This document shows positions 1 to 47,853 of a DNA stretch of 64,000 nucleotides, in pieces. This stretch comes from an uncultured Acidobacteriota bacterium (GTDB lineage: Bacteria > Actinomycetota > Acidimicrobiia > Spongiisociales > ZC4RG35). The stretch covers positions 51,337 to 115,336 of the forward strand of contig CAWGJI010000014.1 in assembly GCA_963822895.1 (NCBI GenBank), read 5' to 3'. Under the pieces are notes generated by a model. The model did no database searches and had not been told where the DNA came from. It saw only the letters and a list, made by a program, of their open reading frames with translations. Position 1 is the first letter of the stretch. Every line of letters begins with the position of its first letter. The translations under genes were made by a program, and so were the position numbers.

Positions 1-272
1 GTGGCTGATGCGACCAGTGGCAGTGTGATCAATTTCAATGGTGATGATGTGGTGTTGTTGCGTAAGGGGGGAGCGGTTGTCGACGTTTTCGGACAGGTGG
101 GGTTTGATCCTGGTTCGGAATGGGCTGGGGGCGGCCAGAACGACACGTTGCGTCGCAAGGAGACTGTCTGTGCTGGTGACACTGATGAGACCGACGCCTT
201 TGACGCTTCGGTCGAATGGGACATGTTCGCCCAGGACACTTTCGACGGTCTAGGCAGCCACACCGCCAACTG
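1..272 (+). repeat. Intragenic direct repeat, copy A (second half of a lamin-tail domain plus linker).
   Basis: It is about 96% identical at the nucleotide level to 519..790, and the last ~150 nt are identical. Confidence 0.85.
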
Positions 273-2940
273 TGGAAGCACTCCTCCCGAGATTGCTTCT
301 GACCTGTTCTTTTCGGAGTATGTGGAGGGTTCTTCGTTCAATAAGGCGGTGGAGATCTACAACGGGACTGGTGGGCCGGTGGATCTGTCTGCTTACAGCT
401 TGGAGTTGTATTCGAATGGGTCGGCGACACTGAGTCAGTCCACGACTTTGTCTGGTTCTTTGGCCGATGGTGATGTTTATGTGATCGCTCATCCCAGTGC
501 CGATCCGACGATCTTGACGGTGGCTGATGCGATCAGTGGCAGTGTGATCAATTTCAATGGTGATGATGCGGTGGTGTTGCGTAAGGGGGGAGCGGTTGTC
601 GACGCATTCGGACAGGTCGGTACTGATCCTGGTTCGGAATGGGCCGGCGGCGGCCAGAACGACACGTTGCGTCGCAAGGAGACTGTCTGTGCTGGTGACA
701 CTGATGAGACCGACGCCTTTGACGCTTCGGTCGAATGGGACATGTTCGCCCAGGACACTTTCGACGGTCTAGGCAGCCACACCGCCAACTGCACCGGGGG
801 TCCGCCTCCGCCACCGGTGTGTGTCGACTCAACATTTGACCTGATCCACGACATCCAGGGGAATGGGCTCGCATCTCCGATCGCGGGGGACACCGGGTCG
901 GTGGAGGCAGTCGTGACCGGCGACTTCCAAAACAACGCAGGGACGGACAACGGTGACCTGGGTGGGTTCTTCATCCAGGAGGAGGACGGCGACGTCGATG
1001 CCGACCCGACGACATCGGAGGGGATCTTCGTCTTCTCCTCCTCACCCGATGTTCAGGTCGGAGACAAGGTCCAGGTCGAGGGCGTGGTCAACGAATTCTT
1101 CGATCTAACTGAGATCAGCCCTGCTTCGAGTGTGATCGTCTGCTCTTCGGGCAACCCACTACCGACGCCCGCCAGCGTCACCCTCCCGGTGACCAGTCTC
1201 GACGATCTGGAGGCTTTCGAGGGAATGGGGGTGGTGCTACCTCAGAACCTGACCATCTCCGAATACTTCAACTTCGACCGATTTGGTGAAATCGTCCTCA
1301 GCACCGACCGTCAGGTCACACCCACTGCCCTGGTCGACCCTGGTCCGGACGCGGTGAGCCTGGCAGAGCAGTATTCGCGAAGCCGGATCACGCTCGATGA
1401 CGGTCGTTCCAGCCAGAATCCTGATCCGGCCATCCATCCGAACGGTGGCATCTTCGATCTTGCCAATCTATTCCGGGGCGGAGACCGGGTGGCCAATGTC
1501 ACAGGGGTCATGGACTATCAATTCGGGCTGTATCGAATCCAGCCAACCGAGGGGGCCGATTACGCCGCGAGCAACCCGCGGCCCACCAGCCCGGCCGACG
1601 TCGGGGGCAACTTGAAAGTGGCTTCGTTCAACGTCCTCAACTACTTCACCACCCTGGACAATGCGGGACCGATCTGCGGGCCGGCCGCCGACCAGGACTG
1701 CCGGGGAGCCGATAACGCAACGGAGCTCACCCGTCAGAGAGACAAGATCGTTGCTGCTATCTCGGAGATCAATGCGGACGTGGTCGGGCTGATCGAGATC
1801 GAGAACCACCCAGCCGACGTGCCCACTGCCGACCTGGTTACCGGGCTAAACGCTGCCCTCGGCGCCGGAACTTATGACTACATAGCTACCGGGGCCATCG
1901 GCACCGATGCCATCAGGGTGGCGATGATCTACAAACCGGCTTCGGTCACCCCTGTAGGTCCCTATGCGATTCTCGATTCGTCAGTCGACAGCCGGTTCCT
2001 CGATGACTACAACCGGCCGGTCCTGGCACAGACCTTCCAGGACAACGAGACGGGCGGCGTCTTCACTCTGGCGGTCAATCACCTCAAGTCCAAAGGGTCC
2101 GACTGCAACGCGGTAGGTGACCCCGACCTGGGCGACGGAGCCGGCAACTGCAATCTGACCCGAACCGCCGCCGCGCAGGCGCTGGTCGATTGGTTGGCCA
2201 CCGACCCCACCGGGAGTAGCGACTCGGACTTCTTGATCATGGGAGACCTCAACTCCTACGACAAGGAGGCTCCGATCGATGCGATCCTGGCCGGTGCCGA
2301 TGATGCGGCCGGAGGGGGTGACGACTACACGGATCTGATCCACGCCTACCTCGGGGAGAACGCCTACTCATATGTGTTCGACGGACAGGTCGGCTATCTC
2401 GATCACGCCCTCGCCGGCTCGGACCTTGTTGGCGAAGTGACCGGGACCACGGTGTGGCATATCAACGCCGACGAGCCGGATCTCATCGACTATGACACAT
2501 CGTTCAAACAGCCGGCACAGGATGCCCTATATGCCCCGGACCCATATCGTGCATCCGACCACGATCCTGTGATCGTCGGGCTGGGAGTTTGTGACGAGAT
2601 CGCCCCAACCATCGAGGTGAGTGTGACTCCGGACAGACTCTGGCCGGCAAACCACAAGTACGTGGATGTGACCGTCAGCGTGACGGCGTCGGACAATTTC
2701 GACTCGACGCCGACTGTGTCCTTGGTGTCTGTGGCGTCAAATGAGCCGGACAACGGGAGCGACGATGGCAACACCGTCAACGACATCGTCAAGGTCAACG
2801 ACTACCAGTTCAAGTTACGAGCGGAACGCTCAGGATCCGGCAGCGGCCGTGTTTACACGATCACCTACAAGGTCGTAGATGATTGCGGCAACAGCACGAT
2901 CGGCACAGCAACCGTGACGGTGCCATTGAACAACCACTGA
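1..2940 (+). CDS. ExeM/NucH-family extracellular endonuclease. The 5' end lies outside the window; it has tandem lamin-tail domains and an endonuclease/exonuclease/phosphatase (EEP) domain.
   Basis: The lamin-tail motif 'SGSVINFNGDD..LRKGGAVVD.FGQVG..SEWAGGGQNDTLRRK' occurs twice. The EEP hallmarks 'LKVASFNVLNYF', 'GLIEIEN' and a C-terminal 'SDHDPVIVGL' are present. The ORF is open at position 1. Confidence 0.8.
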   Translation: MADATSGSVINFNGDDVVLLRKGGAVVDVFGQVGFDPGSEWAGGGQNDTLRRKETVCAGDTDETDAFDASVEWDMFAQDTFDGLGSHTANCGSTPPEIASDLFFSEYVEGSSFNKAVEIYNGTGGPVDLSAYSLELYSNGSATLSQSTTLSGSLADGDVYVIAHPSADPTILTVADAISGSVINFNGDDAVVLRKGGAVVDAFGQVGTDPGSEWAGGGQNDTLRRKETVCAGDTDETDAFDASVEWDMFAQDTFDGLGSHTANCTGGPPPPPVCVDSTFDLIHDIQGNGLASPIAGDTGSVEAVVTGDFQNNAGTDNGDLGGFFIQEEDGDVDADPTTSEGIFVFSSSPDVQVGDKVQVEGVVNEFFDLTEISPASSVIVCSSGNPLPTPASVTLPVTSLDDLEAFEGMGVVLPQNLTISEYFNFDRFGEIVLSTDRQVTPTALVDPGPDAVSLAEQYSRSRITLDDGRSSQNPDPAIHPNGGIFDLANLFRGGDRVANVTGVMDYQFGLYRIQPTEGADYAASNPRPTSPADVGGNLKVASFNVLNYFTTLDNAGPICGPAADQDCRGADNATELTRQRDKIVAAISEINADVVGLIEIENHPADVPTADLVTGLNAALGAGTYDYIATGAIGTDAIRVAMIYKPASVTPVGPYAILDSSVDSRFLDDYNRPVLAQTFQDNETGGVFTLAVNHLKSKGSDCNAVGDPDLGDGAGNCNLTRTAAAQALVDWLATDPTGSSDSDFLIMGDLNSYDKEAPIDAILAGADDAAGGGDDYTDLIHAYLGENAYSYVFDGQVGYLDHALAGSDLVGEVTGTTVWHINADEPDLIDYDTSFKQPAQDALYAPDPYRASDHDPVIVGLGVCDEIAPTIEVSVTPDRLWPANHKYVDVTVSVTASDNFDSTPTVSLVSVASNEPDNGSDDGNTVNDIVKVNDYQFKLRAERSGSGSGRVYTITYKVVDDCGNSTIGTATVTVPLNNH
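519..790 (+). repeat. Intragenic direct repeat, copy B.
   Basis: It is near-identical to 1..272. The track ORFs 38..253 and 557..772 are identical 71-aa artefacts of this repeat. Confidence 0.85.
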
Positions 2941-7840: not shown

Positions 7841-8057
7841 CGAGTCGAGCCTACCCAGCTCGCGTCGAGCGACGCCCGGGATCGAGTGGGAGAGAGGTGT
7901 CGCGAGTCATGTAATTCAGTCGGACTCCAGAACCTTGATGGCGTCCTCGTACATCCCGCCTCCGAACGAAGATCCTCGTCTGCGCTTCATCTCGGCCCAG
8001 ATGGATGCGTCCTGCTCGGTGCGAATTCCATTCAACACGTTGTTGAAGAAGTAGCTC

Positions 8058-8675
8058 TCATGTCCTCGCTCGCACCAAGCTGCCAGCTATCACGGCGGAG
8101 TCGACGAACCCTTCGACTGGCTTGTTGGCCGTAGCCAGGATCACATCACACTCGACCGGCTCGGAGGTCTCCACGTCTGCCGGCCAGGGAATCTGAAGTA
8201 GCCCATTTCTCGTGACGGGTGGGAATGGCTCGGCGCGATTCGTGAAGTTCGCAGCCCACTCCCTGGCTAGGTGTCCCAACGAGTCACGGCTTCGAATCAG
8301 GACGCCAACACACCCCCAACTTGACCCGAGTGCATTTGCGCCGGTGTTTCGGTCTTCCGCTGCCCACAGCGCTTCGGCTTCTCGGACCAGGTCTTGGACA
8401 TCCTCTATTTGGCGAGCGAGAGGTACGAGGGCCCCAACTCCGGTCGCCCCGTCCGCGTCGAGAGTCATGGTGTATGTGTTGTTGCGGCTCTCTGATATGC
8501 GTCCGTAGCGAATTGGAGCTCTGACTGGACGTGCTCTCTGGGAGTCCAAATGAGCATTTCGCCACTCTCCACGGCGGTCATTGTCCCAGATGAGCGAACC
8601 CACGATGAGGACGGCCCCGTCGAGGGTCTGTCTTGGCCCACTCATCGGTGGCATTCTGGCAAGCCGAGGAGCCAC
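8058..8675 (-). CDS. Hypothetical protein, possibly extended or frameshifted at its C-terminus.
   Basis: This 205-aa ORF has a GTG start and no domain I recognise. It is divergent from the redoxin gene. Confidence 0.3.
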   Translation of the reverse strand: MAPRLARMPPMSGPRQTLDGAVLIVGSLIWDNDRRGEWRNAHLDSQRARPVRAPIRYGRISESRNNTYTMTLDADGATGVGALVPLARQIEDVQDLVREAEALWAAEDRNTGANALGSSWGCVGVLIRSRDSLGHLAREWAANFTNRAEPFPPVTRNGLLQIPWPADVETSEPVECDVILATANKPVEGFVDSAVIAGSLVRART

Positions 8676-8688
8676 AGGTCTTCAGTCG

Positions 8689-9270
8689 ATGAGGCCGTCG
8701 TTGCAATGGCAGGAATTCTGGTCATCGGCTGTATGCGTCGCACACGAGACGGGCGAGGGAACGCGTGGCTCTACGCTTTCGGAATGGTCCGAACATCTTG
8801 TAACCGGTGATCGCCTGCCTTCGCTTTACGGAACCGACATGGAGGGCAACGAAGTCGACATCACGGCTTCGGTAGCTGGAAGGTGGGCGGTCGTCCTGTT
8901 CTATCGAGGGGATTGGTGACCGTACTGCCGTCAACAGTTGGTTGACTTTGCGGTTCACGGTGGCCCGCTGAAGGAACTCGGTGTGCGGGTTGCAGCAGCA
9001 TCGGTCGATCCCATCGACAACGTGCGCAGCTTGAAAGAAGGCCTGCGTGTCGGCTTCCCGATGTATGCCGAGGTCGATGCGGCCGCAGTGTCTGCGGCCA
9101 CGGGGGCCCACATGCTCACCGGCAAGAAGACGTACCTCCACGCAACAGGGTTCCTCGTCAACCCCGAGGGGACGATCATCAATGCGGTCTACTCCACGGG
9201 CCCCATCGGCCGGTTCACGGCATCGGAGATCCTCCGCAAGGTCCGCTTCGAGATGGACAAGACGAGCTAG
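8689..9270 (+). CDS. PRX-like2 / AhpC-TSA-family redoxin with an in-frame TGA at the first Cys of CxxC. It is a candidate selenoprotein, or alternatively a nonsense pseudogene.
   Basis: Track ORFs 8581..8919 and 8938..9270 are in the same frame and separated only by TGA 8917-8919. Reading through gives 'VVLFYRGDW-U-PYCRQQL', the PRX_like2 'FYRG.WCP.C' active site. The start codon is uncertain: ATG ~8689 or earlier. Confidence 0.5.
8930..8946 (+). other. Hairpin 10 nt 3' of the in-frame UGA, a possible bacterial SECIS-like element.
   Basis: 'GTCAAC-AGTTG-GTTGAC' forms a perfect 6-bp stem with a 5-nt loop. Flanking 'CCG...CGG' could extend the stem. Confidence 0.3.
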
Positions 9271-9521
9271 AACAGCACCAGGCCCACGCCTCGCAGTACC
9301 GGCGGCCTGCATGGGCTCTCTCGACTTGTTCTTGGTCGGGGTGCTTGATCCTCGTTTGACCCCGGCTGTCCGACCCCCGAAATCCTCAACAGCCACAGGC
9401 GTCTTCTCTCAATCCGCACCTCTTCCGGGTCGCGTCCAATAGGCACTGGACTTTCATTACGGCTGGATCTGGTGGAGCGGACGACGGGTTTCGTACATCT
9501 CCAGGACCTAGCCTCGGGATC

Positions 9522-10988
9522 ATGCGAGTGCTGGTTACTGGCGCAACGGGTTACATCGGTGGAAGGCTGGTACCCAGGCTCGTCGATCGCGGCGTCGACG
9601 TCCGTTGCATGACCCGGGATCCAGCCCGGCTCAACCTGGCCCCTTGGCGCCAGCAGGTGGAGGTGGTCGCCGCGGACGTCAGCGACGAGGCCGCTCTCCA
9701 AGCGGCTCTCCGCGATTGTGACTTCGCCTATTACCTGATCCACGCCTTGGGTGACACCGGTGGGGACTACACGAGTCAGGACCGGTCGGCCGCGGTCAAC
9801 TTTCAGGGCGCGGCTGCCGCCGCCAGGTTGCGACGCATCGTTTACCTGGGCGCGCTCGGTAGCAACGAGGACGACCTCTCCAGGCACCTTCAAAGTCGTC
9901 AGGAGGTGGGGAGAATTCTTGCTGCTGGCACTACTCCGGTTACCGAGTTGCGGGCGGCAGTGATCATCGGGTCGGGGTCGGTGTCCTTCGAGATGATTCG
10001 ACACCTGACTGAATTGCTGCCGGTTCTGTTCCGTCCGCGCTGGGTGCGCACCAAGTGCCAGCCGATAGCCGTGCGCAACGTGCTGGAGATCCTGATCGCG
10101 ATGCTCGATGCTCCTGGAGACGAGGATTACGTCTTCGAGATTGGGGGTCCCGATGTCCTCACCTATGAGGAGATGATGCAGATCTACGCCCAGGTTGCCG
10201 GTCTGACGAAGCGGATTGTGATTCCCTTCCCGTTGTTCAACAGCTGGATTGCGCCGCAGGTGATCGGTCTGGTCACTCCTCTGGTCGCCTCCACGGTCAG
10301 ACCCCTGATCGAAAGCCTTCGCAACGATGTCGTGGTGCGCGAAGAGTCGCCTCCAGGCTTCGAGCCCTCGTCATTGTTTACGTATCGAAAGGGAGTGGAG
10401 CTGGCCCTAAAGCGGATCTCGGAGGAGAACGTCGAGACCCGCTGGTCTGATGCTGTGACCCAGCCTGCGCTGCCGCTTCCCGGCGATCCCGCTTGGTCGG
10501 GAGCTGTCATGAAAGTGGACGAGCGTGTTGCCCGTTCGGCGGCGCCTGTCGATGATGTGTTTTGGGCCGTGACTCGGATCGGCGGTGACGTCGGCTACTA
10601 CGCGATGAATTGGGCCTGGGCCCTGCGAGGCTGGTTCGACAGCCTGATCGGTGGTGTCGGTCTCCGTCGCGGGCGACGGCATCCCGAGGATCTGAGGCCC
10701 GGTGAAGCCCTCGACTTCTTCCGTGTGGCCGAGGTGGATCCGGATCGGCACCGGCTGACACTCCAGGCGGAGATGAAAGTGCCGGGCACCGCCTGGCTGG
10801 GTTGGAGGGTCGAGTCAACCGACAACGGGTCCGTTCTCACCCAGGATGCGCGCTTCGTGCCCAGGGGCTTGCTTGGCCGTCTCTATTGGTGGGTCCTGCT
10901 TCCGTTCCACGCTCCCATCTTCCGCAAGATGGCCCAGCGCATCGCTGCAACGGCGGAGCGCCGAGAGCAGCTGCAGGCCGTGGACTGA
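9522..10988 (+). CDS. NAD(P)H-binding SDR/epimerase-like protein with a C-terminal DUF2867 domain.
   Basis: The Rossmann motif 'VLVTGATGYIGGRLV' is present, and the C-terminal half resembles DUF2867. Confidence 0.7.
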   Translation: MRVLVTGATGYIGGRLVPRLVDRGVDVRCMTRDPARLNLAPWRQQVEVVAADVSDEAALQAALRDCDFAYYLIHALGDTGGDYTSQDRSAAVNFQGAAAAARLRRIVYLGALGSNEDDLSRHLQSRQEVGRILAAGTTPVTELRAAVIIGSGSVSFEMIRHLTELLPVLFRPRWVRTKCQPIAVRNVLEILIAMLDAPGDEDYVFEIGGPDVLTYEEMMQIYAQVAGLTKRIVIPFPLFNSWIAPQVIGLVTPLVASTVRPLIESLRNDVVVREESPPGFEPSSLFTYRKGVELALKRISEENVETRWSDAVTQPALPLPGDPAWSGAVMKVDERVARSAAPVDDVFWAVTRIGGDVGYYAMNWAWALRGWFDSLIGGVGLRRGRRHPEDLRPGEALDFFRVAEVDPDRHRLTLQAEMKVPGTAWLGWRVESTDNGSVLTQDARFVPRGLLGRLYWWVLLPFHAPIFRKMAQRIAATAERREQLQAVD

Positions 10989-11200
10989 ACACCACTGATT
11001 CATCCCTTGTCGCGTCTGGCAGTTCGATCGTGGGGGTCCAGAGCGACAACTCGGAGCCTCATCCCTTACCGGCCCCTCCAACACAACGCGGCCCTGGTGC
11101 ATGGGGTGCCCGAGCGGCCGGGTCATGGCGCTGCGCGCCCGGACCTGGAACCAGCCTTGCCCGATGTGGGTCGACCACTTCAGCAAAGGCCCGATGGCGG

Positions 11201-13896: not shown

Positions 13897-14286
13897 CTAC
13901 TGGATGAGTTCGGCGTTGGCTGATGCGGCTGCCAGGCCGGAGTCAGTCGTGATGATGGTTGCGTGGAGCTGATTGGCGAGCTCGATGTACAGGGCGTCGA
14001 CGAGACGGACGTTGTGATGTAGTGCCCAGGCGCCTTCGAGAAGCGGGGCGAGTAGGTGGCGGTGGAATGGTGCCTGTGCAGTGAGGGATACTCGTTCTTG
14101 CACCTGGAGTTGGCTGAGTTCTCCACCACGTTGCAGACGACCCAGGGCTGACAGGACTTCGGCGTCAAAGTGCGCCGGCACGTTGACCTCGCTGTCTTTA
14201 AGGCGCGTGGCGACGAGCTGGCCCAGTGAAGAAGCGACCAGGTGGTCGACCATCGCTGACGCATCGACTACGAGCTTGTCAGCCAC
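13897..14286 (-). CDS. vapC: PIN-domain toxin, VapC-like, copy 1.
   Basis: 'MADKLVVDASAMVDHLV' begins a PIN fold of 129 aa. It overlaps the upstream RHH gene by 8 nt. Confidence 0.75.
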   Translation of the reverse strand: MADKLVVDASAMVDHLVASSLGQLVATRLKDSEVNVPAHFDAEVLSALGRLQRGGELSQLQVQERVSLTAQAPFHRHLLAPLLEGAWALHHNVRLVDALYIELANQLHATIITTDSGLAAASANAELIQ

Positions 14287-14639: not shown

Positions 14640-16290
14640 GACGGCGGATCCCTATTGCTGACCAGGTGGTCACTCTGCAGCAATGGGCATTGGCGGGGGT
14701 GCCACCCTGGTCGCGAGAATGAGACTCGGAGCTCTCGGTCTCTGACCAAGCTGACGGCTCATGCCGATCGAGACGCACATCGAATGCCGGAGGGAAGCCT
14801 GTTGTCACGCATGCAGAGTCACATGTTGATTTCTTTATGAGCCGTTCCGCCAATGCTCTTCCAGTCGGAATCGTCGGCGGGGGCATTCTCGGGCTGGCAG
14901 TCGGCCGCGAGCTCACGAAACGCAATCCGGGCGTCGAGGTCATTGTGTTCGAGAAAGAGGGCCAGCTGGCGGTCCACCAGACCGGGCACAACTCGGGTGT
15001 CGTCCATGCGGGCATCTACTACAAGCCTGGTTCCCTCAAGGCTCAGCTCTGCGCGCGGGGGAGGACCCTGCTGCGCGAGTACTGCGCCGAGCACCAGCTT
15101 CCATACGACCAATGCGGGAAGCTGGTCGTGGCCGTCGACCCATCCGAGATGGGCCGGCTGGAGAACCTGGAGAAGACTGCCTCCGAGAACGGTGTGCCCG
15201 GTCTCAGGCGGGTCGATGGCGGCGAGATCGCCGAGATCGAGCCACACGCTGCAGGGCTGGCCGCGCTTCATTCTCCGACCACGGCCATCACCGACTATGT
15301 CGCAATCGCACGATCGTATGCACGCGACATCGAGGAGGCAGGGGGGCGGATCCTGCTCTCGTCCGAGGTGACAGGCATCGAGCGCCGGGTCGGGTCGATC
15401 GAGGTGCGGACCGAACGAGATGCACGCAAGGTGGGTCGGCTGGTGGTCTGCGCCGGTCTCCAGTCAGACCGGGTCGCCGAGCCGGTGGACGGCGAGAGCG
15501 CCCCACGAATCGTCCCCTTCCGCGGGGAGTACATGAAGGTGGTCGACTCCAAGCGCGACCTGGTGCGAGGGTTGATCTATCCGGTACCCGATCCTCGCTA
15601 CCCGTTCCTGGGTGTTCATTTCACCTCAATGGTTTCCGGCGACCTCGAGGTAGGCCCCAATGCCGTGCTTGCCCTGAAACGGGAGGGCTATCGCAGACGG
15701 GACGTGAATCTCGCCGATGTCGGCAGCATCGTCTCCTGGCCGGGGTTCTGGCGCATGGCCGCATCGAATTGGCGAGCAGGCATCGAAGAAGTCTGGGGCT
15801 CGATCTCCAAACGCGCCTACATGAAGAAGGCCAGCCGGTATGTGCCCGACATCGGCCCAGAAGATGTGGTCAGGGCGAGAGCCGGGGTGCGGGCCCAAGC
15901 GCTCGATCGGGACGGGTCGTTGGTCGACGATTTCAGGATCTTCGAGAGTGACGGGGTGCTCACGGTCCGCAATGCCCCCTCGCCTGGGGCCACGTCGAGT
16001 CTCGCCATCGCCGAGTACATCGTCGATCAGATGAAGACTTCCGGTGAGCGCCATTGATGGCGCCGGAAATGTCACAGCTGGAGCCGGCATACCCTCGATC
16101 GATGGTCTTGACCCGCCAGGTGTTGGCCGATATCGACGACGGATGTTTCGATGTGGACCCGAGTCTCGAGTGGACGCGCCGCGTGCGTCCTGGGCTCCGT
16201 TTGACCCTTGTTTGACGCCGCCAAGCGGACTCAGCGGAATCCACAACCACCACACGCCTCCCCGGCCCAAACACGTCCTGGTCCACTACT
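14640..16290 (+). repeat. lhgO segment, copy 1 of a dispersed ~1.65-kb duplication.
   Basis: It is about 97% identical to 36720..38335 and carries a ~40-bp indel after the stop codon. Confidence 0.8.
14837..16057 (+). CDS. lhgO: L-2-hydroxyglutarate oxidase (FAD-dependent), copy 1.
   Basis: The FAD-binding 'VGIVGGGILGLAVGREL' and the LhgO/YgaF-family length of 406 aa fit this call. Confidence 0.7.
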   Translation: MSRSANALPVGIVGGGILGLAVGRELTKRNPGVEVIVFEKEGQLAVHQTGHNSGVVHAGIYYKPGSLKAQLCARGRTLLREYCAEHQLPYDQCGKLVVAVDPSEMGRLENLEKTASENGVPGLRRVDGGEIAEIEPHAAGLAALHSPTTAITDYVAIARSYARDIEEAGGRILLSSEVTGIERRVGSIEVRTERDARKVGRLVVCAGLQSDRVAEPVDGESAPRIVPFRGEYMKVVDSKRDLVRGLIYPVPDPRYPFLGVHFTSMVSGDLEVGPNAVLALKREGYRRRDVNLADVGSIVSWPGFWRMAASNWRAGIEEVWGSISKRAYMKKASRYVPDIGPEDVVRARAGVRAQALDRDGSLVDDFRIFESDGVLTVRNAPSPGATSSLAIAEYIVDQMKTSGERH

Positions 16291-16675
16291 GGATGAGTTC
16301 GGCGTTGGCTGATGCGGCTGCCAAACCGGAGTCAGTCGTGATGATGGTTGCGTGGAGCTGATTGGCGAGCTCGATGTACAGGGCGTCGACGAGACGGACG
16401 TTGTGATGTAGCGCCCAGGCGCCTTCGAGAAGCGGGGCGAGCAGGTGGCGGTGGAACGGTGCCTGTGCAGTGAGGGATACTCGTTCTTGCACCTCGAGTT
16501 CGCTGAGTCCTCCACCACGTTGCAGACGACCCAGCGCTGACAGGACTTCGGCGTCAAAGTGCGCCGGCACGTTGACCTCGCTGTCTCTGAGGCGTGTGGC
16601 GACGAGCTGACCCAGCGAAGAAGCGACCAGGTAGTCGACCATCGCTGACGCGTCGACTACGAGCTTGTCAGCCAC
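16286..16675 (-). CDS. vapC: PIN-domain toxin, VapC-like, copy 2.
   Basis: It differs from copy 1 at 6 of 129 residues. Confidence 0.75.
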   Translation of the reverse strand: MADKLVVDASAMVDYLVASSLGQLVATRLRDSEVNVPAHFDAEVLSALGRLQRGGGLSELEVQERVSLTAQAPFHRHLLAPLLEGAWALHHNVRLVDALYIELANQLHATIITTDSGLAAASANAELIQ

Positions 16676-29348: not shown

Positions 29349-30107
29349 TCAGCTATCACCTCCCACGATCATCGAGACGATCTCATCGCGTGAGCTCTCG
29401 CTCGGGAGGACTTCGCCCACCTTGTGGCCCCGTCTCATGACCATCGCCCGGTCGGCGACCTCCATGACGTGATCCATGGCGTGGGAGATCACGACGACGG
29501 CTTTGCCATCGTCTCGGAGACGGTGGATCAGGTCGAGGACCCTGCGCGCTTCGCGGACACCCAGAGCCGCGGTGGGCTCGTCGAGAATCACCAGACGTGC
29601 GGCAAAGGCGGTAGCCCTCGCCACGGCGACGGCCTGACGTTGGCCCCCGGACATCAGACCCACGGGCGCTTCCAGGTCGGGAAGGGTGACCTGGAGTCTG
29701 TCGAGAACGTCCCTCGTCGCCAAGGCCATGCTCTTGGTCCGCAGCAGACGCATCCCCATCGGAAGCCAGCTGGGTCCGGCTGTTTCCCTGCCGGCATAGA
29801 AGTTCGCCGACGGGCTCAGGTTGTCGAAGAGAGCCAGGTCTTGATAGACGGTCTCGATCCCCAAGGCCCTGGCGTCGGATGGGTCGTGGAGATGAACCTC
29901 GCTTCCATCGACTTCGATCGTGCCTGAGTCGAGCTGATGGACTCCACTCATGCATTTGATCAGCGTCGATTTTCCTGCCCCGTTGTCACCGAGAATCGCC
30001 AAGACTTCCCCGGCACGAACATCCACGTTCACGTCGTCGAGGGCCAGGACCCCGCCGAAGCGCTTCGTCCCACCTCGGACGGCAAGCGTTGGGGTTCCTG
30101 CGCTCAC
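29349..30107 (-). CDS. ABC-transporter ATP-binding protein.
   Basis: The Walker A 'GDNGAGKST', the signature 'LSGGQRQ' and the Walker B 'ILDEPT' are present. The GTG start overlaps the permease stop in a GTGA. Confidence 0.75.
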   Translation of the reverse strand: MSAGTPTLAVRGGTKRFGGVLALDDVNVDVRAGEVLAILGDNGAGKSTLIKCMSGVHQLDSGTIEVDGSEVHLHDPSDARALGIETVYQDLALFDNLSPSANFYAGRETAGPSWLPMGMRLLRTKSMALATRDVLDRLQVTLPDLEAPVGLMSGGQRQAVAVARATAFAARLVILDEPTAALGVREARRVLDLIHRLRDDGKAVVVISHAMDHVMEVADRAMVMRRGHKVGEVLPSESSRDEIVSMIVGGDS

Positions 30108-31208
30108 GTTCGGGCCGCCTGCATCAGGCGGAGCCGGTCTTCGAGTCGTCCCCGGAGCACGTCCGATTCGACGGCGACCAGGATCACCACACCCAGGACG
30201 ATCAATTGGAAGAAGGCATCGAGGTTGGCCAGGTTCATGGCGTTGCGGATGACTCCGATCATGATCGCCCCGACGATCGCATGGCCCACCTTTCCCCGAC
30301 CGCCGAGGAAGCTCGCCCCGCCAATGATGACAGCAGCGATGGCATCGAGCTCCGCGAGATTCCCGAATGTTGGGGCCCCTGCGTTGGTCCGCCCTGCGGT
30401 CAGGATCCCTGCGATGCCGGCGGCCAGCCCACTGAATGCATAAACCGAGATGAGGATCGCCGAGGTTGGTATCGCCGTCCGCCTTGCCGCCTCCGGGTTG
30501 CCCCCAACCGCATAGATCCACCGTCCCCACACGACCCGGTGCAGGAGCATCCAGACCGCGAACACGACCGCTACGACCACGAAAGTGGAGATGGGAAGCC
30601 AGCCGAGAATGGAGTCGCCTCCCACGGATCGGATGATCGGCGGCATGCCCTGGATGGGTCGGCCGTCCGATAGCCAGAGGGCGAGCCCCCTTGCCAAAGT
30701 GAGCGTTGCAAGCGTGACGATGAAGGGATGAGGTATCTGACCTTTCACGAAGAGCACGCCGTTGAACAGGCCGACCACGAGACCAGTCCCGAGCATGAGG
30801 GCGATGACCAGGATGCTCGGAGCCCCCTGCCTGGAAGACCACCGCTCCGACGACAGTCGCCAGGGCCAGGACGGAGCCGACAGACAGGTCGATGCCCCGA
30901 GTGATGATGACGAGCAGCTGACCCAGGGAGAGCACTGAGATGACGGCGGTCTGGGCGAGGACGTTCCCGATGTTGCGGGTGGTGAGGAAGACCGGGACCA
31001 GGAGCGATATCACGACGATCAGGGCAATGAGAATGAGGAGTGGGCCCGCCCGGAGCATGAGGAGAGCGACTTTTAGGGACCCCTCCAGTGACGGAGCCTG
31101 CTCGTCGCCCCGCCCGGTCGCTTCGCTGCCGGTCCTCGTTTCGGCAGACCGGGGGTCTGCCGTCTCGTTCAGGTCGGAGTCCCTTGAGCTCGTCACTGAA
31201 TCTGACAA
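30104..31208 (-). pseudogene. Ribose-type ABC permease disrupted by a +1 frameshift in a C5/G5 homopolymer.
   Basis: The N-terminal half lies in the frame of the 29349..31208 track ORF and the C-terminal half in the 30104..30796 frame. Removing one C from the C5 run at ~30823-30827 restores '...FQAGAPSILVIALMLGTG'. Confidence 0.6.
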
Positions 31209-32878: not shown

Positions 32879-33631
32879 CTACTTCGCCAGGTAGGAGGTG
32901 ACGCTTGCCAGGTCGGCGACCAGACGTTCCTCGAGCTGGGGCGTGAGTCGATCCTTGAACAGGGTGGTGCTCACCGCGTACCGGGGCTCGTCCCCCTGAG
33001 TCTTGACCGCCACAGCCAGGCAGACCACGTTGGGTGCCGCCTCCTCGTTGTCGATCGCATGACCGCGTTCGCGGATGTTTGCCAGGTCCTCTGATAGCGA
33101 CGCCAGGGTGGCGTGGGAGCGATCTGTGAGACGGCGGAGCGGCTCGGTGAGAGTCGCCGCCAGCTCATCGGGGTCGAGCATGGCGAGCATCGCCTTTCCG
33201 ATCGCCGTCGACGATGCGGGAAGCCGCTTCCCGACGCCGGACGTGAGCGCAATCGGCTGGACACCGTCGTGGCGAGCGAGGAACAAGACGTCTTCTTCTT
33301 CGAGGATGGCGAGTTGGGAAGTCTCGCTCGATAGGGCATCGAGCGTTGGGACGAAGTCGCGAAAGCGTTGGACTGCATCGTCGCTGCGGAGAAACACCGA
33401 GGCGAGCTCTACCACGGTAGGGCCGATCGAGAATCCGGCGCCCGTGCGGCGGGCCAGCCCGGTTTCGACCAGGGCGGCGAGGATGTTGGTGACCGACGAG
33501 TGGGGTATGCCGGTGGCACGAGCGATCTCCGAGATCCTCGGGTAGGAGTCGGGCTGGCTCGAGATGACGTCGAGGACGGCCGCGGCACGAACGACGGCGG
33601 GAGCGGGCGTGCCCGGTGCAGCAGAACTCAT
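32879..33631 (-). CDS. IclR-family transcriptional regulator (KdgR-like).
   Basis: An N-terminal winged HTH is followed by an IclR effector domain. Its ATG at 33631 sits in an ATGA with an out-of-frame TGA. Confidence 0.7.
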   Translation of the reverse strand: MSSAAPGTPAPAVVRAAAVLDVISSQPDSYPRISEIARATGIPHSSVTNILAALVETGLARRTGAGFSIGPTVVELASVFLRSDDAVQRFRDFVPTLDALSSETSQLAILEEEDVLFLARHDGVQPIALTSGVGKRLPASSTAIGKAMLAMLDPDELAATLTEPLRRLTDRSHATLASLSEDLANIRERGHAIDNEEAAPNVVCLAVAVKTQGDEPRYAVSTTLFKDRLTPQLEERLVADLASVTSYLAK

Positions 33632-34660
33632 CGCGAGTCCACCAAGGAGCTTGACGATCTCCTCCCCTGAACCGAGGCGCTCGATTGCCTTCGGCATGTC
33701 CTCAAGCGGCACGACGTCGGTGATCAGCGAGTCGACGGGTATCACGCCCGTGGCGATCAGACCGACCGCATCCTCGAAATCGCGGCGCTCGTAGACCCTG
33801 GCCCCGCGTAACTCGAGTTCCTTCCAAAAGACGGCCATGAAGTCGACAGGAGGCGGTTGGGTGTGGATCGCCACGATGACGCCGCGGCCGCGCACGGCCA
33901 ACACATCGGTGAGCGCACGAACCCCGGACAACGAGCCCGAGACCTCAAAAGCCTTGTCGGCGCCTCTCCCGCCGGTCCACTCGTGGACTGTCTCGGCCAG
34001 GGTGTCGACGGTTGGATCGACGGTACGCAATCCCAGCTTGCCGGCGAGTCCGCGACGAAACGCCGACACTTCGGAGAGGAGGACATCGGCGCCGGCATTC
34101 GTGGCCACGAGTGAGATGAGTAGGCCGATCGGCCCGCCGCCGATCACGACGACCTGATCCGACGCTTTCACTTCACCACGACGAACATCATGCACCGCAA
34201 CGGCAGTCGGCTCGGTGAGGCTCGCCGCTTCGAGAGGCACATCGTCGGGGAGGCGGACGAGTAGTCGGGCTGGGACGTTCCAGTGTTGTTGAAGGGATCC
34301 TGGAGAGTCGATCCCGACGAAGTCGAGGTTGTGGCAGACGTGGTTGTGCCCGACGTCACACGCCGGGCAGTCGTCACACCAATCGAGCGGCATCACCGTT
34401 ACGTGATCGCCGCTGCGCCAATCGGCGACGTTCGATCCGACCGAATCGATCGTCCCCGACATCTCGTGTCCTATCGGCCACGGTGAGGTGACTCGTTGAT
34501 CCATGGCGCCGTGCGCGATCTTGAGGTCGGTGCCGCAGATCCCGGTGAAGGCCACGGCGATCCTGACCTCATCTGGGCCAGGCTCGATCGGCTCATACGA
34601 TCGCGGCTGGAAAATCCCATTGCCGTGATAGTCGATTGCAAGAGAACGCCATGGCCGAGT
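33632..34660 (-). CDS. Zinc-dependent alcohol dehydrogenase (medium-chain family). It has no in-frame stop before the IclR gene and no canonical start in frame.
   Basis: 'GICGTDLKIAHG' and 'GGGPIGL' are medium-chain ADH motifs. The 743-aa track ORF fuses this gene to the IclR gene. An ATG-GCG start exists only in the +1 frame. Confidence 0.5.
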
Positions 34661-34717
34661 GCCAGTATACTGCAGGATTAACAGTATATTGTCACCATAG
34701 AGTCGCCAAGGACTGCA

Positions 34718-35389
34718 ATGGCCCGTCACACGAAGACCCAAGTGCTCGACACGGTCGCCCGGGAGGGTGTCATCCCGGTGTTCCACCATCCGGACGTTGG
34801 GACCGTGATCGAAGTGGCCAACACACTGGTGGGAGGCGGACTCACCACGCTGGAATTCACCAACCGCGGCGATGGCGCCATCAGCGTGCTCGGCGAGCTG
34901 ATCGCATGGGCGCAAAGAGAGCGCCCCGAGTTGATCGTTGGCGCCGGCTCGATCGTCGACGGAGCATCGGCAGCCCATGTTCTCGATCTCGGTGCCAGCT
35001 TTGTCTTCGCCCCGAGCTTCTCTGAGGATGTAGCCGATGCCTGCAATGTGCGCAATGTGCCTTACGTCCCCGGATGTGGCACCGTCACCGAGATTCTCCG
35101 TGCGTACCAAGCCGGATGTGATCTGGTCAAGCTGTTCCCGGCCGATTCAATCGGCGGCCCCAACTTCCTCAGGGCGGTGCGGGCCCCGTGTCCTTGGGTC
35201 CGTGCGATACCGACCGGCGGGGTCGAGCCAACGGCTGTCTCACTGCGCCCTTGGTACGAAGCCGGTGCTCCGGCGGTGGGTATCGGGTCGAAGCTGCTTT
35301 CGAAGGATCTGATTGGTGACCGTGACTTCGAGGGTCTTCAGAAGCGGGTCGCCGCCACGGTGAGCGCGGTGGCCGAGGCCAGGAGCTGA
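34718..35389 (+). CDS. eda: KDPG/KHG aldolase.
   Basis: 'EGVIPVFHH...LTTLEFTNR...GAGSIV' is the Eda-family signature. Confidence 0.8.
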   Translation: MARHTKTQVLDTVAREGVIPVFHHPDVGTVIEVANTLVGGGLTTLEFTNRGDGAISVLGELIAWAQRERPELIVGAGSIVDGASAAHVLDLGASFVFAPSFSEDVADACNVRNVPYVPGCGTVTEILRAYQAGCDLVKLFPADSIGGPNFLRAVRAPCPWVRAIPTGGVEPTAVSLRPWYEAGAPAVGIGSKLLSKDLIGDRDFEGLQKRVAATVSAVAEARS

Positions 35390-47301: not shown

Positions 47302-47853
47302 ATGGACCTCCCAGTCATCATGGTCGAAGGCGACAGCGATAGAGCAGCGCTCGAAGCGGCTGCAGACGTGCTCGGCTTGGACCGGTCCTCCATATCGATC
47401 TTGGTGATGAATGGCGCCACCAACGTGGTCAGGCTGCTTGGCGAGATGGTCGCAACCGGCGTACGGGTGGCCGGTCTGTATGACGTTGGTGAAGAGGCCC
47501 ACATCGTGCGAGCCATGTCCGCGGCCGGTATGACGGATGGTCACGATCCGACCGCTCTGAAGAGGCTCGGATTCTTCGAGTGCGATTACGACCTGGAGTG
47601 GGAGCTGATCCGGGCGCTGGGAGCCGCTCGCGTCATCGACGTGATCGAGACACAGGGCGACGACCTGCGGCGTTTTCGCCGGCTGCAACAGATGCCCGAG
47701 TGGCGTGGGCAGAAGGTCGAGGACCAATTGCGAAGGTGGTTCGGCAGCGGTAGTCGTCGCAAGGTCAGGTATGCCGCACTCCTCGTCCGGGCGATGGACG
47801 CCGTTGAGATCCCGCGACCGCTCCGCCAGGTATTGGACTACGCCCTCGGGTGA
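47302..47853 (+). CDS. TOPRIM/OLD-family-like nuclease-domain protein. It is standalone, with no adjacent ABC-ATPase partner.
   Basis: 'VIMVEGDSDRAALE' is a TOPRIM acidic motif. The later 'CDYDLEWELIRALG' resembles the OLD-family/DUF4276 C-terminal region. Confidence 0.4.
   Translation: MDLPVIMVEGDSDRAALEAAADVLGLDRSSISILVMNGATNVVRLLGEMVATGVRVAGLYDVGEEAHIVRAMSAAGMTDGHDPTALKRLGFFECDYDLEWELIRALGAARVIDVIETQGDDLRRFRRLQQMPEWRGQKVEDQLRRWFGSGSRRKVRYAALLVRAMDAVEIPRPLRQVLDYALG

What the first reader, a model, noticed from the sequence alone, without database searches (positions are those of the whole stretch)
8581..9270. In-frame UGA exactly at the first Cys of the CxxC motif in a PRX-like2 redoxin: a candidate selenoprotein
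The two track ORFs 8581..8919 and 8938..9270 share one frame and are separated only by TGA 8917-8919. Translating through gives 'VVLFYRGDW-[UGA]-PYCRQQL'. That is the 'FYRG.WCP.C' active site of PRX_like2 (AhpC/TSA-type) thiol-disulfide oxidoreductases, with UGA in the position of the resolving/peroxidatic Cys. Prx-like redoxins with a UxxC motif are a recognised bacterial selenoprotein class. A perfect 6-bp hairpin (GTCAAC-AGUUG-GUUGAC, ~8930-8946) begins 10 nt 3' of the UGA, which is where bacterial SECIS elements sit. The alternative reading is a TGC→TGA nonsense pseudogene, which is plausible given the other disrupted genes in this window.
Basis: partly seen in the sequence, partly recalled or inferred. 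Interest (0 to 1): 0.75.

Follow-up and report, generated by a model that had tools for sequence, protein, structure and literature searches.

The report
Real selenocysteine codon in Prx-like redoxin
The in-frame TGA is a conserved selenocysteine codon with its own RNA hairpin signal, in a known family of peroxiredoxin-like redox proteins, but this copy has one extra base just after its start codon that is either an assembly error or a very recent knock-out.

Summary
TGA 8917-8919 joins two ORFs in one frame, giving ...VVLFYRGDW-U-PYCRQQL..., and a 6-bp hairpin starts 10 nt downstream. It is not a nonsense mutation. All 80 related genome loci (35-93% aa identity; Acidimicrobiia, Burkholderiales, Geobacteraceae, Syntrophales) carry TGA at this codon. 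Rarer homologues carry Cys there. Both halves are under purifying selection (dN/dS 0.02-0.22). The hairpin is 97% paired across 69 distinct sequences, with compensatory changes at 3 of 6 pairs and a fixed AGUU loop. It meets the published bacterial SECIS rules and is absent from 25 Cys-forms. The family is the known "Prx-like thiol:disulfide oxidoreductase" (UxxC) selenoprotein class. Sec aligns with the Thr of the peroxiredoxin TxxC motif, not with the peroxidatic Cys. One new caveat applies. The conserved start is ATG 8784, probably leaderless. This copy has an extra T at 8788 that puts that start out of frame. A 98%-identical syntenic relative has the gene intact. Two other genes in the window are also frameshifted, so an assembly indel is somewhat more likely than true decay. 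Sec machinery could not be checked in this genome. Verdict: a new member of a known kind, of modest interest.

The parts
8772..8777 (+). TACGCT, a -10-like TANNNT hexamer 6 nt before the start codon; putative promoter of a leaderless mRNA (inferred)
   Evidence: TANNNT lies at or near -12 from the start (-12 in most, -13/-14 in a few) in 30 of 81 loci, essentially the window's own Acidimicrobiia clade (window, L001-L029, L033, L084). None of these has a Shine-Dalgarno sequence. Poriferisodalis and Burkholderiales relatives have AGGA/GGAGG instead. CTACGCT is invariant in the five closest relatives. The E. coli-type promoter scan found nothing.
8784..8786 (+). Conserved ATG start codon of the gene; out of frame with the body in this copy
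   Evidence: Relatives start with M(A/V)EHLVTGD 44-46 codons before the TGA. The DNA alignments show ATG GCC/GTC/GTG GAA CAT.
8788..8788 (+). Extra T (ATGG[T]CCGAA) relative to six relatives; shifts the frame after codon 1-2, so reading from ATG 8784 stops at TGA 8808-8810
   Evidence: The intact allele in L169 gives MAEHLVTGD...GDW-U-PYC...DKTS.
8791..8916 (+). N-terminal coding part (EHLVTGD...FYRGDW) in the frame of the Sec codon
   Evidence: Identical in protein to L169. dN/dS is 0.02-0.09 against close relatives.
8917..8919 (+). UGA = selenocysteine codon, first position of the U-P-Y-C redox motif
   Evidence: TGA sits at this codon in 80/80 genome loci and in about 35 metagenome loci. 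Cys-forms have TGC/TGT here.
8926..8928 (+). TGC, the Cys of UxxC; aligns with the peroxidatic Cys of AhpC
   Evidence: phmmer alignment to AhpC: fyRgdwCpyCrqql against fyPadfTfvCptel.
8930..8946 (+). Core SECIS hairpin: 6-bp stem 8930-8935/8941-8946, loop AGUUG 8936-8940
   Evidence: The stem is 97.3% paired in 69 distinct sequences. Compensatory changes occur at 3 of 6 pairs, and loop columns A-G-U-U are invariant. The stem is absent from 25 Cys-forms.
8920..8961 (+). Extended stem-loop in this copy (lower stem specific to this lineage, not conserved family-wide)
   Evidence: -17 kcal/mol, z -2.84. The lower helix is only 55% paired across the family.
8920..9270 (+). C-terminal coding part, ending with stop TAG 9268-9270
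   Evidence: It is 88-96% identical to about 30 C-terminal 'fragments' in the protein database. dN/dS is 0.09-0.22.

Best explanation
Window 8784-9270 (+) is a gene for a roughly 161-residue Prx-fold thiol/selenol-disulfide oxidoreductase. Its active site is U-P-Y-C, and UGA 8917-8919 encodes selenocysteine.

Inferred from the established bacterial pathway: as the ribosome reaches the UGA, the hairpin 8930-8946 is bound by SelB carrying Sec-tRNA(Sec). The apical loop begins 16 nt after the UGA and carries G-U at loop positions 2-3. Sec is inserted instead of termination.

Shown here: the UGA, the hairpin and its covariation, and the Cys homologues.

In the protein, Sec sits at the N-cap of helix alpha1 of the thioredoxin-like core, the position of the attacking Cys of a CxxC motif. 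The Cys three residues on is the partner. The likely chemistry is reversible selenenylsulfide formation, that is disulfide or peroxide reduction by a UxxC centre. It is not canonical peroxiredoxin catalysis, because the Prx Pro, Thr and Arg are replaced by Arg, Sec and His.

In the window's clade the mRNA is probably leaderless and starts at ATG 8784. This copy has one extra T at 8788, so as assembled it cannot be translated from that start. I judge this about 55% likely to be an assembly indel, because three genes in the window are frameshifted. I put a real, very recent inactivation at about 35%.
For: TGA sits at the homologous codon in 80/80 loci from GTDB species representatives, spanning Acidimicrobiia, Ca. 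Poriferisodalis, Burkholderiales, Geobacteraceae, Syntrophales and others at 35-93% identity. Nearly all close database homologues are C-terminal (about 95-112 aa) or N-terminal (44-123 aa, ending ...FYRGDW) fragments, meaning gene callers stop at the same TGA everywhere.

Full-length Cys homologues have WCPYC or WCRYC at the aligned position. dN/dS is 0.02-0.09 upstream and 0.09-0.22 downstream of the TGA.

The hairpin is 97.3% paired. Compensatory G-C<->A-U changes occur at pairs 14/30, 17/27 and 18/26, the last in 15 sequences as CAA/GUU(Val) <-> CAG/GCU(Ala). Further variants in metagenomes include CGG/GCC, CUG/GCA and a register-shifted CCAGC-AGUU-GCUGG. 56 of 70 Sec-forms have at least 5 Watson-Crick pairs, against 0 of 25 Cys-forms (Fisher p = 3e-13, not corrected for phylogeny).

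The element meets the bSECIS rules in PMC13188914 Fig. 2A: 5-nt loop, 6-bp stem, G[U] at loop positions 2-3, 16 nt spacing, MFE -17 kcal/mol.

TGA is an ordinary stop elsewhere in the window. The 488-aa gene 9522-10988 ends in TGA, and exactly that product is on record.

Fold: an AF2 model of the Cys homologue P0031 has pLDDT 94. Its Cys46 (equivalent to U) lies at the N-cap of helix 47-58, and the top PDB match is Bcp4 3HJP at TM 0.84.

Family: PF00578 at 1.8e-18. The literature describes Prx-like UxxC selenoproteins (PMC1088965, PMC2398784, PMC1794560, PMC13188914).

The intact allele is in L169, which is 98% identical and syntenic. The gene body differs at 4 of 482 nt.
Against: No selA, selB, selD or tRNA-Sec was found in the window or within 10 kb either side of the gene in 80 relatives. 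The rest of the source genome could not be read.

No Rfam SECIS model matches, which is expected because bacterial SECIS elements are poorly represented in Rfam.

The peptide RQQL(V/A)D is conserved, so part of the nucleotide conservation is due to the protein. The Cys-form control addresses this but has only 25 sequences.

The lower stem is not conserved.

This copy's start is frameshifted, so expression in this genome is not assured. There is no experimental evidence of Se incorporation for this subfamily.
Confidence: 0.9

Rival explanations
1. Nonsense pseudogene: a TGC->TGA mutation killed an ordinary CxxC Prx-like gene in this genome.
For: One transition separates TGC from TGA. Other genes in the window are disrupted.
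Against: TGA is the state in 80/80 related species and in dozens of metagenome loci. Both halves remain under strong purifying selection. A covarying hairpin that Cys-forms lack follows the TGA. The 98%-identical relative L169 has the same TGA in an otherwise intact ORF.
Confidence: 0.01
2. The family is a selenoprotein family, but this particular copy is truly dead. The extra T at 8788 is a real, very recent frameshift, and the adjacent divergently transcribed gene is also hit at 8083.
For: Six relatives lack the extra base. Reading from the conserved start ATG 8784 stops after 8 codons (ORF 8550..8810). Five of the seven indel sites against L169 fall in the roughly 12% of aligned sequence that is intergenic. 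That pattern looks like real indels filtered by selection rather than uniform error. The extra T is not in a long homopolymer.
Against: The gene body is 99.2% identical to the intact allele, with a single aa change at a variable position and a perfect SECIS, so any inactivation left no trace of decay. All six single-base indels against L169 are 'extra base in the window'. At least three genes in 64 kb are frameshifted: 8083, 8788 and the BPD_transp_2 permease near 30.8 kb. This fits systematic assembly error. The closest relatives come from long-read-style assemblies, judging by their contig_N names.
Confidence: 0.35
3. The copy is functional but starts upstream at ATG 8689 (or TTG 8701), giving a protein with a roughly 32-residue N-terminal extension. 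That ORF is in frame with the body in both the window and L169.
For: ORF 8689..8919 is open, and a gene caller chose it (P0121, P0122). The indels between the window and L169 sum to a multiple of three across this stretch.
Against: The stretch 8660-8784 evolves like non-coding DNA. It has about 8 substitutions and 3-4 single-base indels in 130 nt, against 0 differences in the next 175 nt. The 'extension' is only about 78% identical in protein between genomes that are 98% identical in DNA. It is not homologous in L004, L084 or L001-3. The conserved TANNNT at -12 indicates transcription starting at ATG 8784.
Confidence: 0.08
4. UGA is read through or reassigned without selenium, for example near-cognate Trp or Cys insertion, or a genome-wide UGA sense code.
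For: One database homologue cluster has Trp (HWWPYC, P0115) at this position.
Against: TGA terminates ordinary genes in the window. The taxa involved use the standard code. A conserved hairpin with G-U in the loop at SECIS spacing has no role in near-cognate read-through. The position is the catalytic Cys of a CxxC motif in homologues, which is the classic Sec/Cys pair.
Confidence: 0.02

Closest known systems
Prx-like thiol:disulfide oxidoreductase selenoproteins ('Prx-like protein' / 'Prx-like 1', PF00578, UxxC; Kryukov & Gladyshev 2004 as cited in PMC13188914; PMC1088965; PMC2398784; PMC1794560)
   Same: It matches PF00578 and has a thioredoxin-like UxxC in place of the Prx TxxU/TxxC. Cys homologues exist, and a SECIS hairpin lies right after the UGA. 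UxxU variants occur among relatives (L150, L156), as the review lists for this family. Members occur in Geobacteraceae and Syntrophales (L059, L071), the taxa where the family was first described.
   Different: I could not align it directly to the reference sequence WP_010940744.1. Most members found here are Acidimicrobiia from soil, sediment and sponges, a class whose Sec use is barely documented. Their mRNAs appear to be leaderless.
Canonical peroxiredoxins (AhpC, BCP/PrxQ, Prx6) and the Sec-containing Prx/PrxU (TxxU)
   Same: The fold is the same: TM 0.84 to Bcp4 3HJP and E about 1e-8 to AhpC. The second Cys of UxxC aligns with the peroxidatic Cys.
   Different: The catalytic Pro, Thr and Arg are replaced by Arg, Sec and His. 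In PrxU, Sec is at the peroxidatic position (TxxU), whereas here it is three residues upstream. NCBIfam PrxU scores 29 bits against a cut-off of 270.
CxxC thiol-disulfide oxidoreductases on the same scaffold (ResA/TlpA/CcmG type)
   Same: The CxxC sits at the N-terminus of helix alpha1 of a Prx/Trx-like fold. ResA structures are hit at 7e-7 and 4NMU appears in the fold search.
   Different: It has no signal peptide or membrane anchor. It is a cytoplasmic-type protein of about 160 aa. NCBIfam ResA scores 23.5 bits against a cut-off of 170.
Bacterial SECIS consensus (bSECISearch model; E. coli fdhF/fdnG type)
   Same: It is a stem-loop inside the coding region immediately 3' of the UGA, with a small apical loop carrying G followed by U. 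The spacing is 16 nt, within the model's 16-37 nt range (PMC13188914 Fig. 2A).
   Different: The spacing is at the minimum of the allowed range. The conserved part is only a 6-bp stem with a 5-nt loop. The element also dictates the protein sequence, because Val/Ala covaries with the Gln codon.
Peroxiredoxin-like family protein, cd02970, UxxS selenoprotein (listed in PMC13188914)
   Same: Both belong to the PRX_like2-type AhpC/TSA family and have Sec at the first position of the motif.
   Different: That entry has UxxS. Here the motif is UxxC, with UxxU in a few relatives.

Membership tests
Bacterial selenoprotein gene (Sec-UGA + bSECIS) | In-frame UGA aligned with Cys in homologues (Sec/Cys pair) | tested here: met
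   Alignments A1 and A4: W-U-PYC against WCPYC/WCRYC. 25 distinct TGC/TGT forms were found.
Bacterial selenoprotein gene (Sec-UGA + bSECIS) | TGA-containing homologues in other organisms, with conservation on both sides of the TGA | tested here: met
   80/80 loci carry the TGA. dN/dS is 0.02-0.22 on both sides.
Bacterial selenoprotein gene (Sec-UGA + bSECIS) | Apical loop 3-9 nt, upper stem 4-16 bp (PMC13188914 Fig. 2A) | tested here: met
   Loop AGUUG is 5 nt and the stem is 6 bp. The stem is conserved with covariation.
Bacterial selenoprotein gene (Sec-UGA + bSECIS) | G in the first two loop positions, usually followed by G or U | tested here: met
   Loop columns 20-23 (A-G-U-U) are invariant in 69 sequences. 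Among the 25 Cys-forms, 9 have an AGUU loop start and 16 have other loops (AGCUG, AACUG, AGCUC, AACUC, AAUUG, AAUUA).
Bacterial selenoprotein gene (Sec-UGA + bSECIS) | 16-37 nt between the UGA and the apical loop | tested here: met
   8920-8935 is 16 nt, the lower limit.
Bacterial selenoprotein gene (Sec-UGA + bSECIS) | MFE <= -7.5 kcal/mol | tested here: met
   -17 kcal/mol for 8920-8961. The bare 17-nt hairpin gives only -5.5.
Bacterial selenoprotein gene (Sec-UGA + bSECIS) | selA, selB, selC (tRNA-Sec) and selD in the same genome | not testable with these tools
   None were found in the 64-kb window or in the 80 loci (10 kb either side of the gene). The rest of the 734,539-bp source contig or MAG could not be fetched. 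The only precedent in the class is Actinomarina (bioRxiv 10.64898/2026.04.03.716425).
Bacterial selenoprotein gene (Sec-UGA + bSECIS) | Selenium actually incorporated (75Se labelling or MS) | not testable with these tools
   This needs an experiment.
Prx-like thiol:disulfide oxidoreductase selenoprotein family | AhpC/TSA (PF00578) domain | tested here: met
   E = 1.8e-18, 67 bits against a cut-off of 26.
Prx-like thiol:disulfide oxidoreductase selenoprotein family | Thioredoxin-like UxxC (or UxxU) motif instead of TxxU/TxxC | tested here: met
   U-P-Y-C. UxxU occurs in L150 and L156. The description is in PMC1088965 and PMC13188914.
Prx-like thiol:disulfide oxidoreductase selenoprotein family | Significant similarity to a reference member (WP_010940744.1, Geobacter sulfurreducens) | not tested
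   The reference sequence could not be retrieved. The indirect evidence is that Geobacteraceae and Syntrophales loci L059 and L071 belong to the same alignment.
Peroxiredoxin proper (catalytic Pro/Thr/Cys/Arg) | PxxxTxxC motif | tested here: not met
   The motif is RgdwUpyC against PadfTfvC of AhpC.
Peroxiredoxin proper (catalytic Pro/Thr/Cys/Arg) | Conserved catalytic Arg | tested here: not met
   It aligns with the nearly invariant His: LHATGF against DRATFV.
Peroxiredoxin proper (catalytic Pro/Thr/Cys/Arg) | Prx/Trx-like fold | tested here: met
   The AF2 model has pLDDT 94, and Foldseek gives TM 0.84 to 3HJP. The model is of the Cys homologue P0031, not the window protein.
PrxU (NF040737) / SelL-related (NF040769) | NCBIfam score above the curated cut-off | tested here: not met
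   29 against 270 bits for PrxU, and 17 against 120 bits for SelL-related.

The most novel reading that the evidence does not exclude
In soil, sediment and sponge Acidimicrobiia, this selenoprotein may be close to a universal, Sec-only gene. It would be carried on a leaderless mRNA, with the Sec codon 133 nt from the 5' end. It would behave as a single-gene module at a recombination hot spot. Alleles about 10% divergent sit between flanks that are 99.9% identical (L004 against L084), and the gene is the only homologous segment between the window and several relatives. If so, selenoprotein genes are exchanged as units, and Sec use is far more pervasive in this class than has been recorded.
Probability: 0.2. 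Interest if true: 0.45.

Novelty: new member of a known kind. Interest (0 to 1): 0.3.

Why it matters
Practically, this gene is mis-annotated everywhere. Gene callers split it into two 'hypothetical' or 'AhpC' fragments in at least 80 species genomes. A simple rule would fix those annotations: W-TGA-[PR]-[YF]-C followed by the GUCARC-AGUU-GYUGAC hairpin.

Biologically, it adds evidence that Acidimicrobiia decode Sec. The gene turns up in soil lineages and in the sponge symbiont Ca. Poriferisodalis.

It is also a clean example of an RNA signal constraining both codon choice and an amino acid. Val/Ala covaries with a synonymous Gln codon, and Cys-forms of the same family serve as a natural control.

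It does not open a new mechanism.

Tried and rejected
- **Rfam.** Both the gathering and the permissive search gave no SECIS or tRNA-Sec hit. This is uninformative for bacterial SECIS.
- **Sec machinery.** ARAGORN on the window and 80 loci found no tRNA-Sec. tblastn with E. coli SelA, SelB and SelD found nothing. This only shows the machinery is not adjacent to the gene.
- **Other Sec candidates in the window.** A GC3-based screen of all TGA-joined ORF pairs was too noisy to use. A CxxU/UxxC motif screen found no other credible candidate.
- **Lower SECIS helix.** Columns 8-12/34-38 are only 55% paired across the family, so I rejected it as a conserved feature.
- **Promoter scan.** The sigma-70 consensus scan found nothing. 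The leaderless TANNNT signature came from my own comparison.
- **Independent assembly of the start region.** Five exact-sequence look-ups returned 'not on record', as did P0121.
- **Linking Sec machinery to a genome that carries the gene.** The genome scan and the contig look-ups were exhausted, and a SelD search seeded from E. coli would not reach Acidimicrobiia within the 120 rows listed. I did not attempt it.
- **Upstream ATG 8689 as the true start.** Rejected as unlikely, because that stretch evolves like non-coding DNA.
- **Repeats at 14.8 and 36.9 kb as IS copies.** Rejected. They are paralogous DAO oxidoreductase genes.
Full report
**1. The observation**

The sequence is as described. 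ORFs 8581..8919 and 8938..9270 share a frame. The only interruption is TGA 8917-8919. Read-through gives ...GRWAVVLFYRGDW*PYCRQQLVDFAVHGG.... A perfect 6-bp hairpin starts 10 nt after the TGA: GUCAAC 8930-8935, loop AGUUG 8936-8940, GUUGAC 8941-8946.

With Cys in place of the stop, the protein matches Pfam AhpC-TSA (1.8e-18) and Redoxin (1.1e-11). No NCBIfam equivalog reaches its cut-off.

The hairpin alone is not statistically impressive, at -5.5 kcal/mol and z -2.1. The extended stem-loop 8920-8961 gives -17 kcal/mol and z -2.84.

**2. Is the TGA a lesion or a codon?**

A protein search with the read-through sequence returned a striking pattern. Almost every homologue from 50 to 96% identity is a C-terminal fragment of about 95-112 aa covering the last two thirds of the query. 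Full-length proteins of 158-172 aa appear only at 37-48% identity. Those full-length proteins carry WCPYC or WCRYC at the aligned position.

I then fetched 80 loci from species-representative genomes. They come from Acidimicrobiia/Acidimicrobiales MAGs, Ca. Poriferisodalis, Burkholderiales, Geobacteraceae, Syntrophales and others. All 80 have TGA at exactly this codon, in the context [FLVIMY]YRG.W-TGA-[PR][YF]C. A search with the N-terminal part found the matching N-terminal fragments, all ending ...FYRGDW.

Against close relatives, dN/dS is 0.02-0.09 upstream and 0.09-0.22 downstream of the TGA. Both halves are therefore maintained as protein in one frame.

TGA is an ordinary stop elsewhere in the window. 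The 488-aa gene 9522-10988 ends in TGA, and exactly that product is on record from an independent assembly.

The nonsense-pseudogene reading is refuted.

**3. The hairpin**

In 69 distinct sequences aligned from the TGA, the 6-bp stem is 97.3% paired. Three of its six pairs show changes on both sides:
- G-C <-> A-U at the closing pair (CGU..GAC against CAU/AAU..GAU).
- A-U <-> G-C at pair 17/27.
- A-U <-> G-C at pair 18/26 in 15 sequences.

The last change couples a synonymous Gln codon (CAA/CAG) to an amino-acid change (GUU Val / GCU Ala). The RNA structure therefore dictates a residue.

Loop columns A-G-U-U are invariant. Leu at this position is always UUG or UUA in the 69 genome-derived Sec-forms, even in 62% GC genomes. 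A few divergent metagenome Sec-forms depart from this.

Metagenome Sec-forms add more compensatory variants: CGG/GCC, CUG/GCA, and a register-shifted CCAGC-AGUU-GCUGG. One subgroup (KQQLTAF) has its hairpin further 3'.

As a control I collected 25 distinct Cys-forms. They encode the same CRQQLxDF peptide but use mixed Leu codons, have L/I/V/T/S/M after the Leu, and never reach 5 Watson-Crick pairs. By contrast 56 of 70 Sec-forms do (p = 3e-13). The sequences are not phylogenetically independent, so the p-value is only indicative.

The element meets the published bSECIS constraints: loop 3-9 nt, stem 4-16 bp, G[G|U] early in the loop, 16-37 nt from the UGA, MFE <= -7.5 kcal/mol (PMC13188914, Fig. 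2A). The spacing is at the minimum, 16 nt.

The lower helix seen in this copy is not conserved, at 55% paired.

**4. What the protein is**

phmmer against PDB aligns fyRgdwUpyCrqql with AhpC fyPadfTfvCptel. Sec therefore corresponds to the Thr of the Prx PxxxTxxC motif, and the following Cys corresponds to the peroxidatic Cys. The Prx Pro is Arg here, and the catalytic Arg is a nearly invariant His (LHATGF). CxxC oxidoreductases of the ResA type are also hit, at 7e-7.

An AlphaFold model of the Cys homologue P0031 (pLDDT 94) places Cys46, the equivalent of U, at the N-cap of helix 47-58. The best PDB match is Bcp4 3HJP at TM 0.84.

The protein is therefore a Prx-fold scaffold with a thioredoxin-type UxxC centre. 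The inferred chemistry is selenolate attack followed by a selenenylsulfide with Cys+3.

**5. Comparison with what is known**

The literature describes exactly this class. [quoted passage not shown] PMC2398784 lists 'Prx-like 1, pfam00578, UxxC' with 225 GOS sequences. PMC13188914 lists 'Prx-like thiol:disulfide oxidoreductase', PF00578, UxxC/UxxU. PMC1794560 records it in Geobacter, Syntrophus and Desulfotalea.

My relatives include Geobacteraceae and Syntrophales loci, and two UxxU forms (L150, L156).

Sec machinery in class Acidimicrobiia has a recent precedent in Actinomarina (bioRxiv 10.64898/2026.04.03.716425).

The finding is a new member of a known kind, and it is unannotated because gene callers split it.

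**6.

In relatives the gene starts at an ATG 44-46 codons before the TGA, giving M(A/V)EHLVTGD. In the window's Acidimicrobiia clade, a TANNNT hexamer sits at or near -12 from that ATG, with no Shine-Dalgarno sequence. Other clades have SD sequences instead. This is the signature of leaderless actinobacterial mRNAs, which is an inference.

The window has this ATG at 8784 and the hexamer at 8772-8777. It reads ATGG[T]CCGAACAT where six relatives read ATGGCCGAACAT, ATGGTCGAACAT or ATGGTGGAACAT. The extra T at 8788 puts the start out of frame, and reading from ATG 8784 stops at 8808-8810.

L169 is a syntenic contig 98% identical to the window over about 7.5 kb. It has the intact gene, MAEHLVTGD...GDW-U-PYC...DKTS. 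Its body differs from the window's at 4 of 482 nt, with 1 aa change.

The in-frame upstream ATG 8689 chosen by a gene caller (P0121) is unlikely to be real. That stretch diverges like non-coding DNA.

**7. Error or decay?**

Against L169, all six single-base indels are extra bases in the window. One of them, C at 8083, frameshifts the neighbouring 242-aa gene on the minus strand. A BPD_transp_2 permease near 30.8 kb is also split between two frames.

Three frameshifts in 64 kb, with otherwise pristine gene bodies, fit assembly indels somewhat better than decay. I put these at about 55% and 35%. The concentration of indels in intergenic DNA argues the other way. Only the reads can settle it.

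**8. What could not be done**

No tRNA-Sec, selA, selB or selD lies in the window or in the 10 kb flanks either side of the gene in 80 relatives. No other credible Sec candidate exists in the window.

**9. Verdict**

The UGA is a selenocysteine codon of a known selenoprotein family (confidence about 0.9). Whether this copy is expressed is open. Interest is modest at 0.3.

Noticed in passing
window 7916-8675 (-), indel at 8083: The neighbouring gene on the minus strand is frameshifted by an extra C at 8083. L169 encodes an intact 242-aa product. The window splits it into 8058..8675 and 7916..8038. It has no Pfam match.
   Followed up: partly
window 30104-31208 (-): A BPD_transp_2 ABC permease gene is split between two frames near 30.8 kb. 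Profile positions 2-53 lie in one frame and 63-268 in another. The 619-aa 'ORF' 29349..31208 is a chimera of the permease start, out-of-frame sequence and the downstream ABC ATPase.
   Followed up: partly
window 32879-35110 (-): A single 743-aa ORF carries a Zn-alcohol-dehydrogenase domain (residues 178-485) followed by a complete IclR regulator (505-735). This looks like two genes run together, possibly through another indel or a lost stop.
   Followed up: no
window 8660-8790: The intergenic stretch between the two divergent genes is a divergence hot spot against L169. It has about 8 substitutions and 3-4 single-base indels in 130 nt, where the genomes are otherwise 98% identical and the next 175 nt are identical.
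   Followed up: partly
window 9306-11165: The 488-aa epimerase/DUF2867 gene (9522-10988) is present here but absent from the syntenic relative L169, where the class II aminoacyl-tRNA synthetase gene follows the Prx-like gene directly.
   Followed up: partly
L004 1-10511 vs L084 1433-10310: Two contigs are 99.87% identical over 8.2 kb upstream of the Prx-like gene but only 90% identical within it, and they differ downstream. The window shares only the gene plus about 60 nt either side with L001-L004 and L084. The gene sits at a variable-region boundary or is exchanged as a unit.
   Followed up: partly
P0115 (protein cluster, 16 members): A full-length homologue has Trp at the Sec/Cys position (VVLFYRGHWWPYC). 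TGG is one step from TGA. Its significance is unknown.
   Followed up: no
L150 and L156 (metagenome loci): These are UxxU forms, with two in-frame TGAs (TGA CCN TAT TGA) at the redox motif.
   Followed up: no
L122, L125, L126: A Sec subgroup with the peptide KQQLTAF lacks the hairpin at +13. Instead it has a strong 6-7 bp hairpin about 36 nt after the TGA, so SECIS placement varies within one family.
   Followed up: partly
L019, L021: These loci are labelled Chthoniobacterales and Verrucomicrobiales, yet they carry gene and upstream sequences nearly identical to the Acidimicrobiales loci L020 and L022. They are probably mis-binned contigs.
   Followed up: no
window 14837-16057 and 36907-38118; 13897-14196 and 16286-16585: Two paralogous FAD-dependent oxidoreductase (DAO) genes share 94% identity over the repeat found. 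A 300-nt direct repeat (97%) flanks the first copy.
   Followed up: partly
window 1-791: A tandem direct repeat (272 nt, 96%, period 519) lies inside the large partial ORF 1..2940.
   Followed up: no
window 47302-47853 (+): A 183-aa ORF carries only an OLD-like TOPRIM domain, with no ATPase part. It follows an alpha/beta-hydrolase-adenylate cyclase gene and may be a truncated nuclease gene.
   Followed up: no
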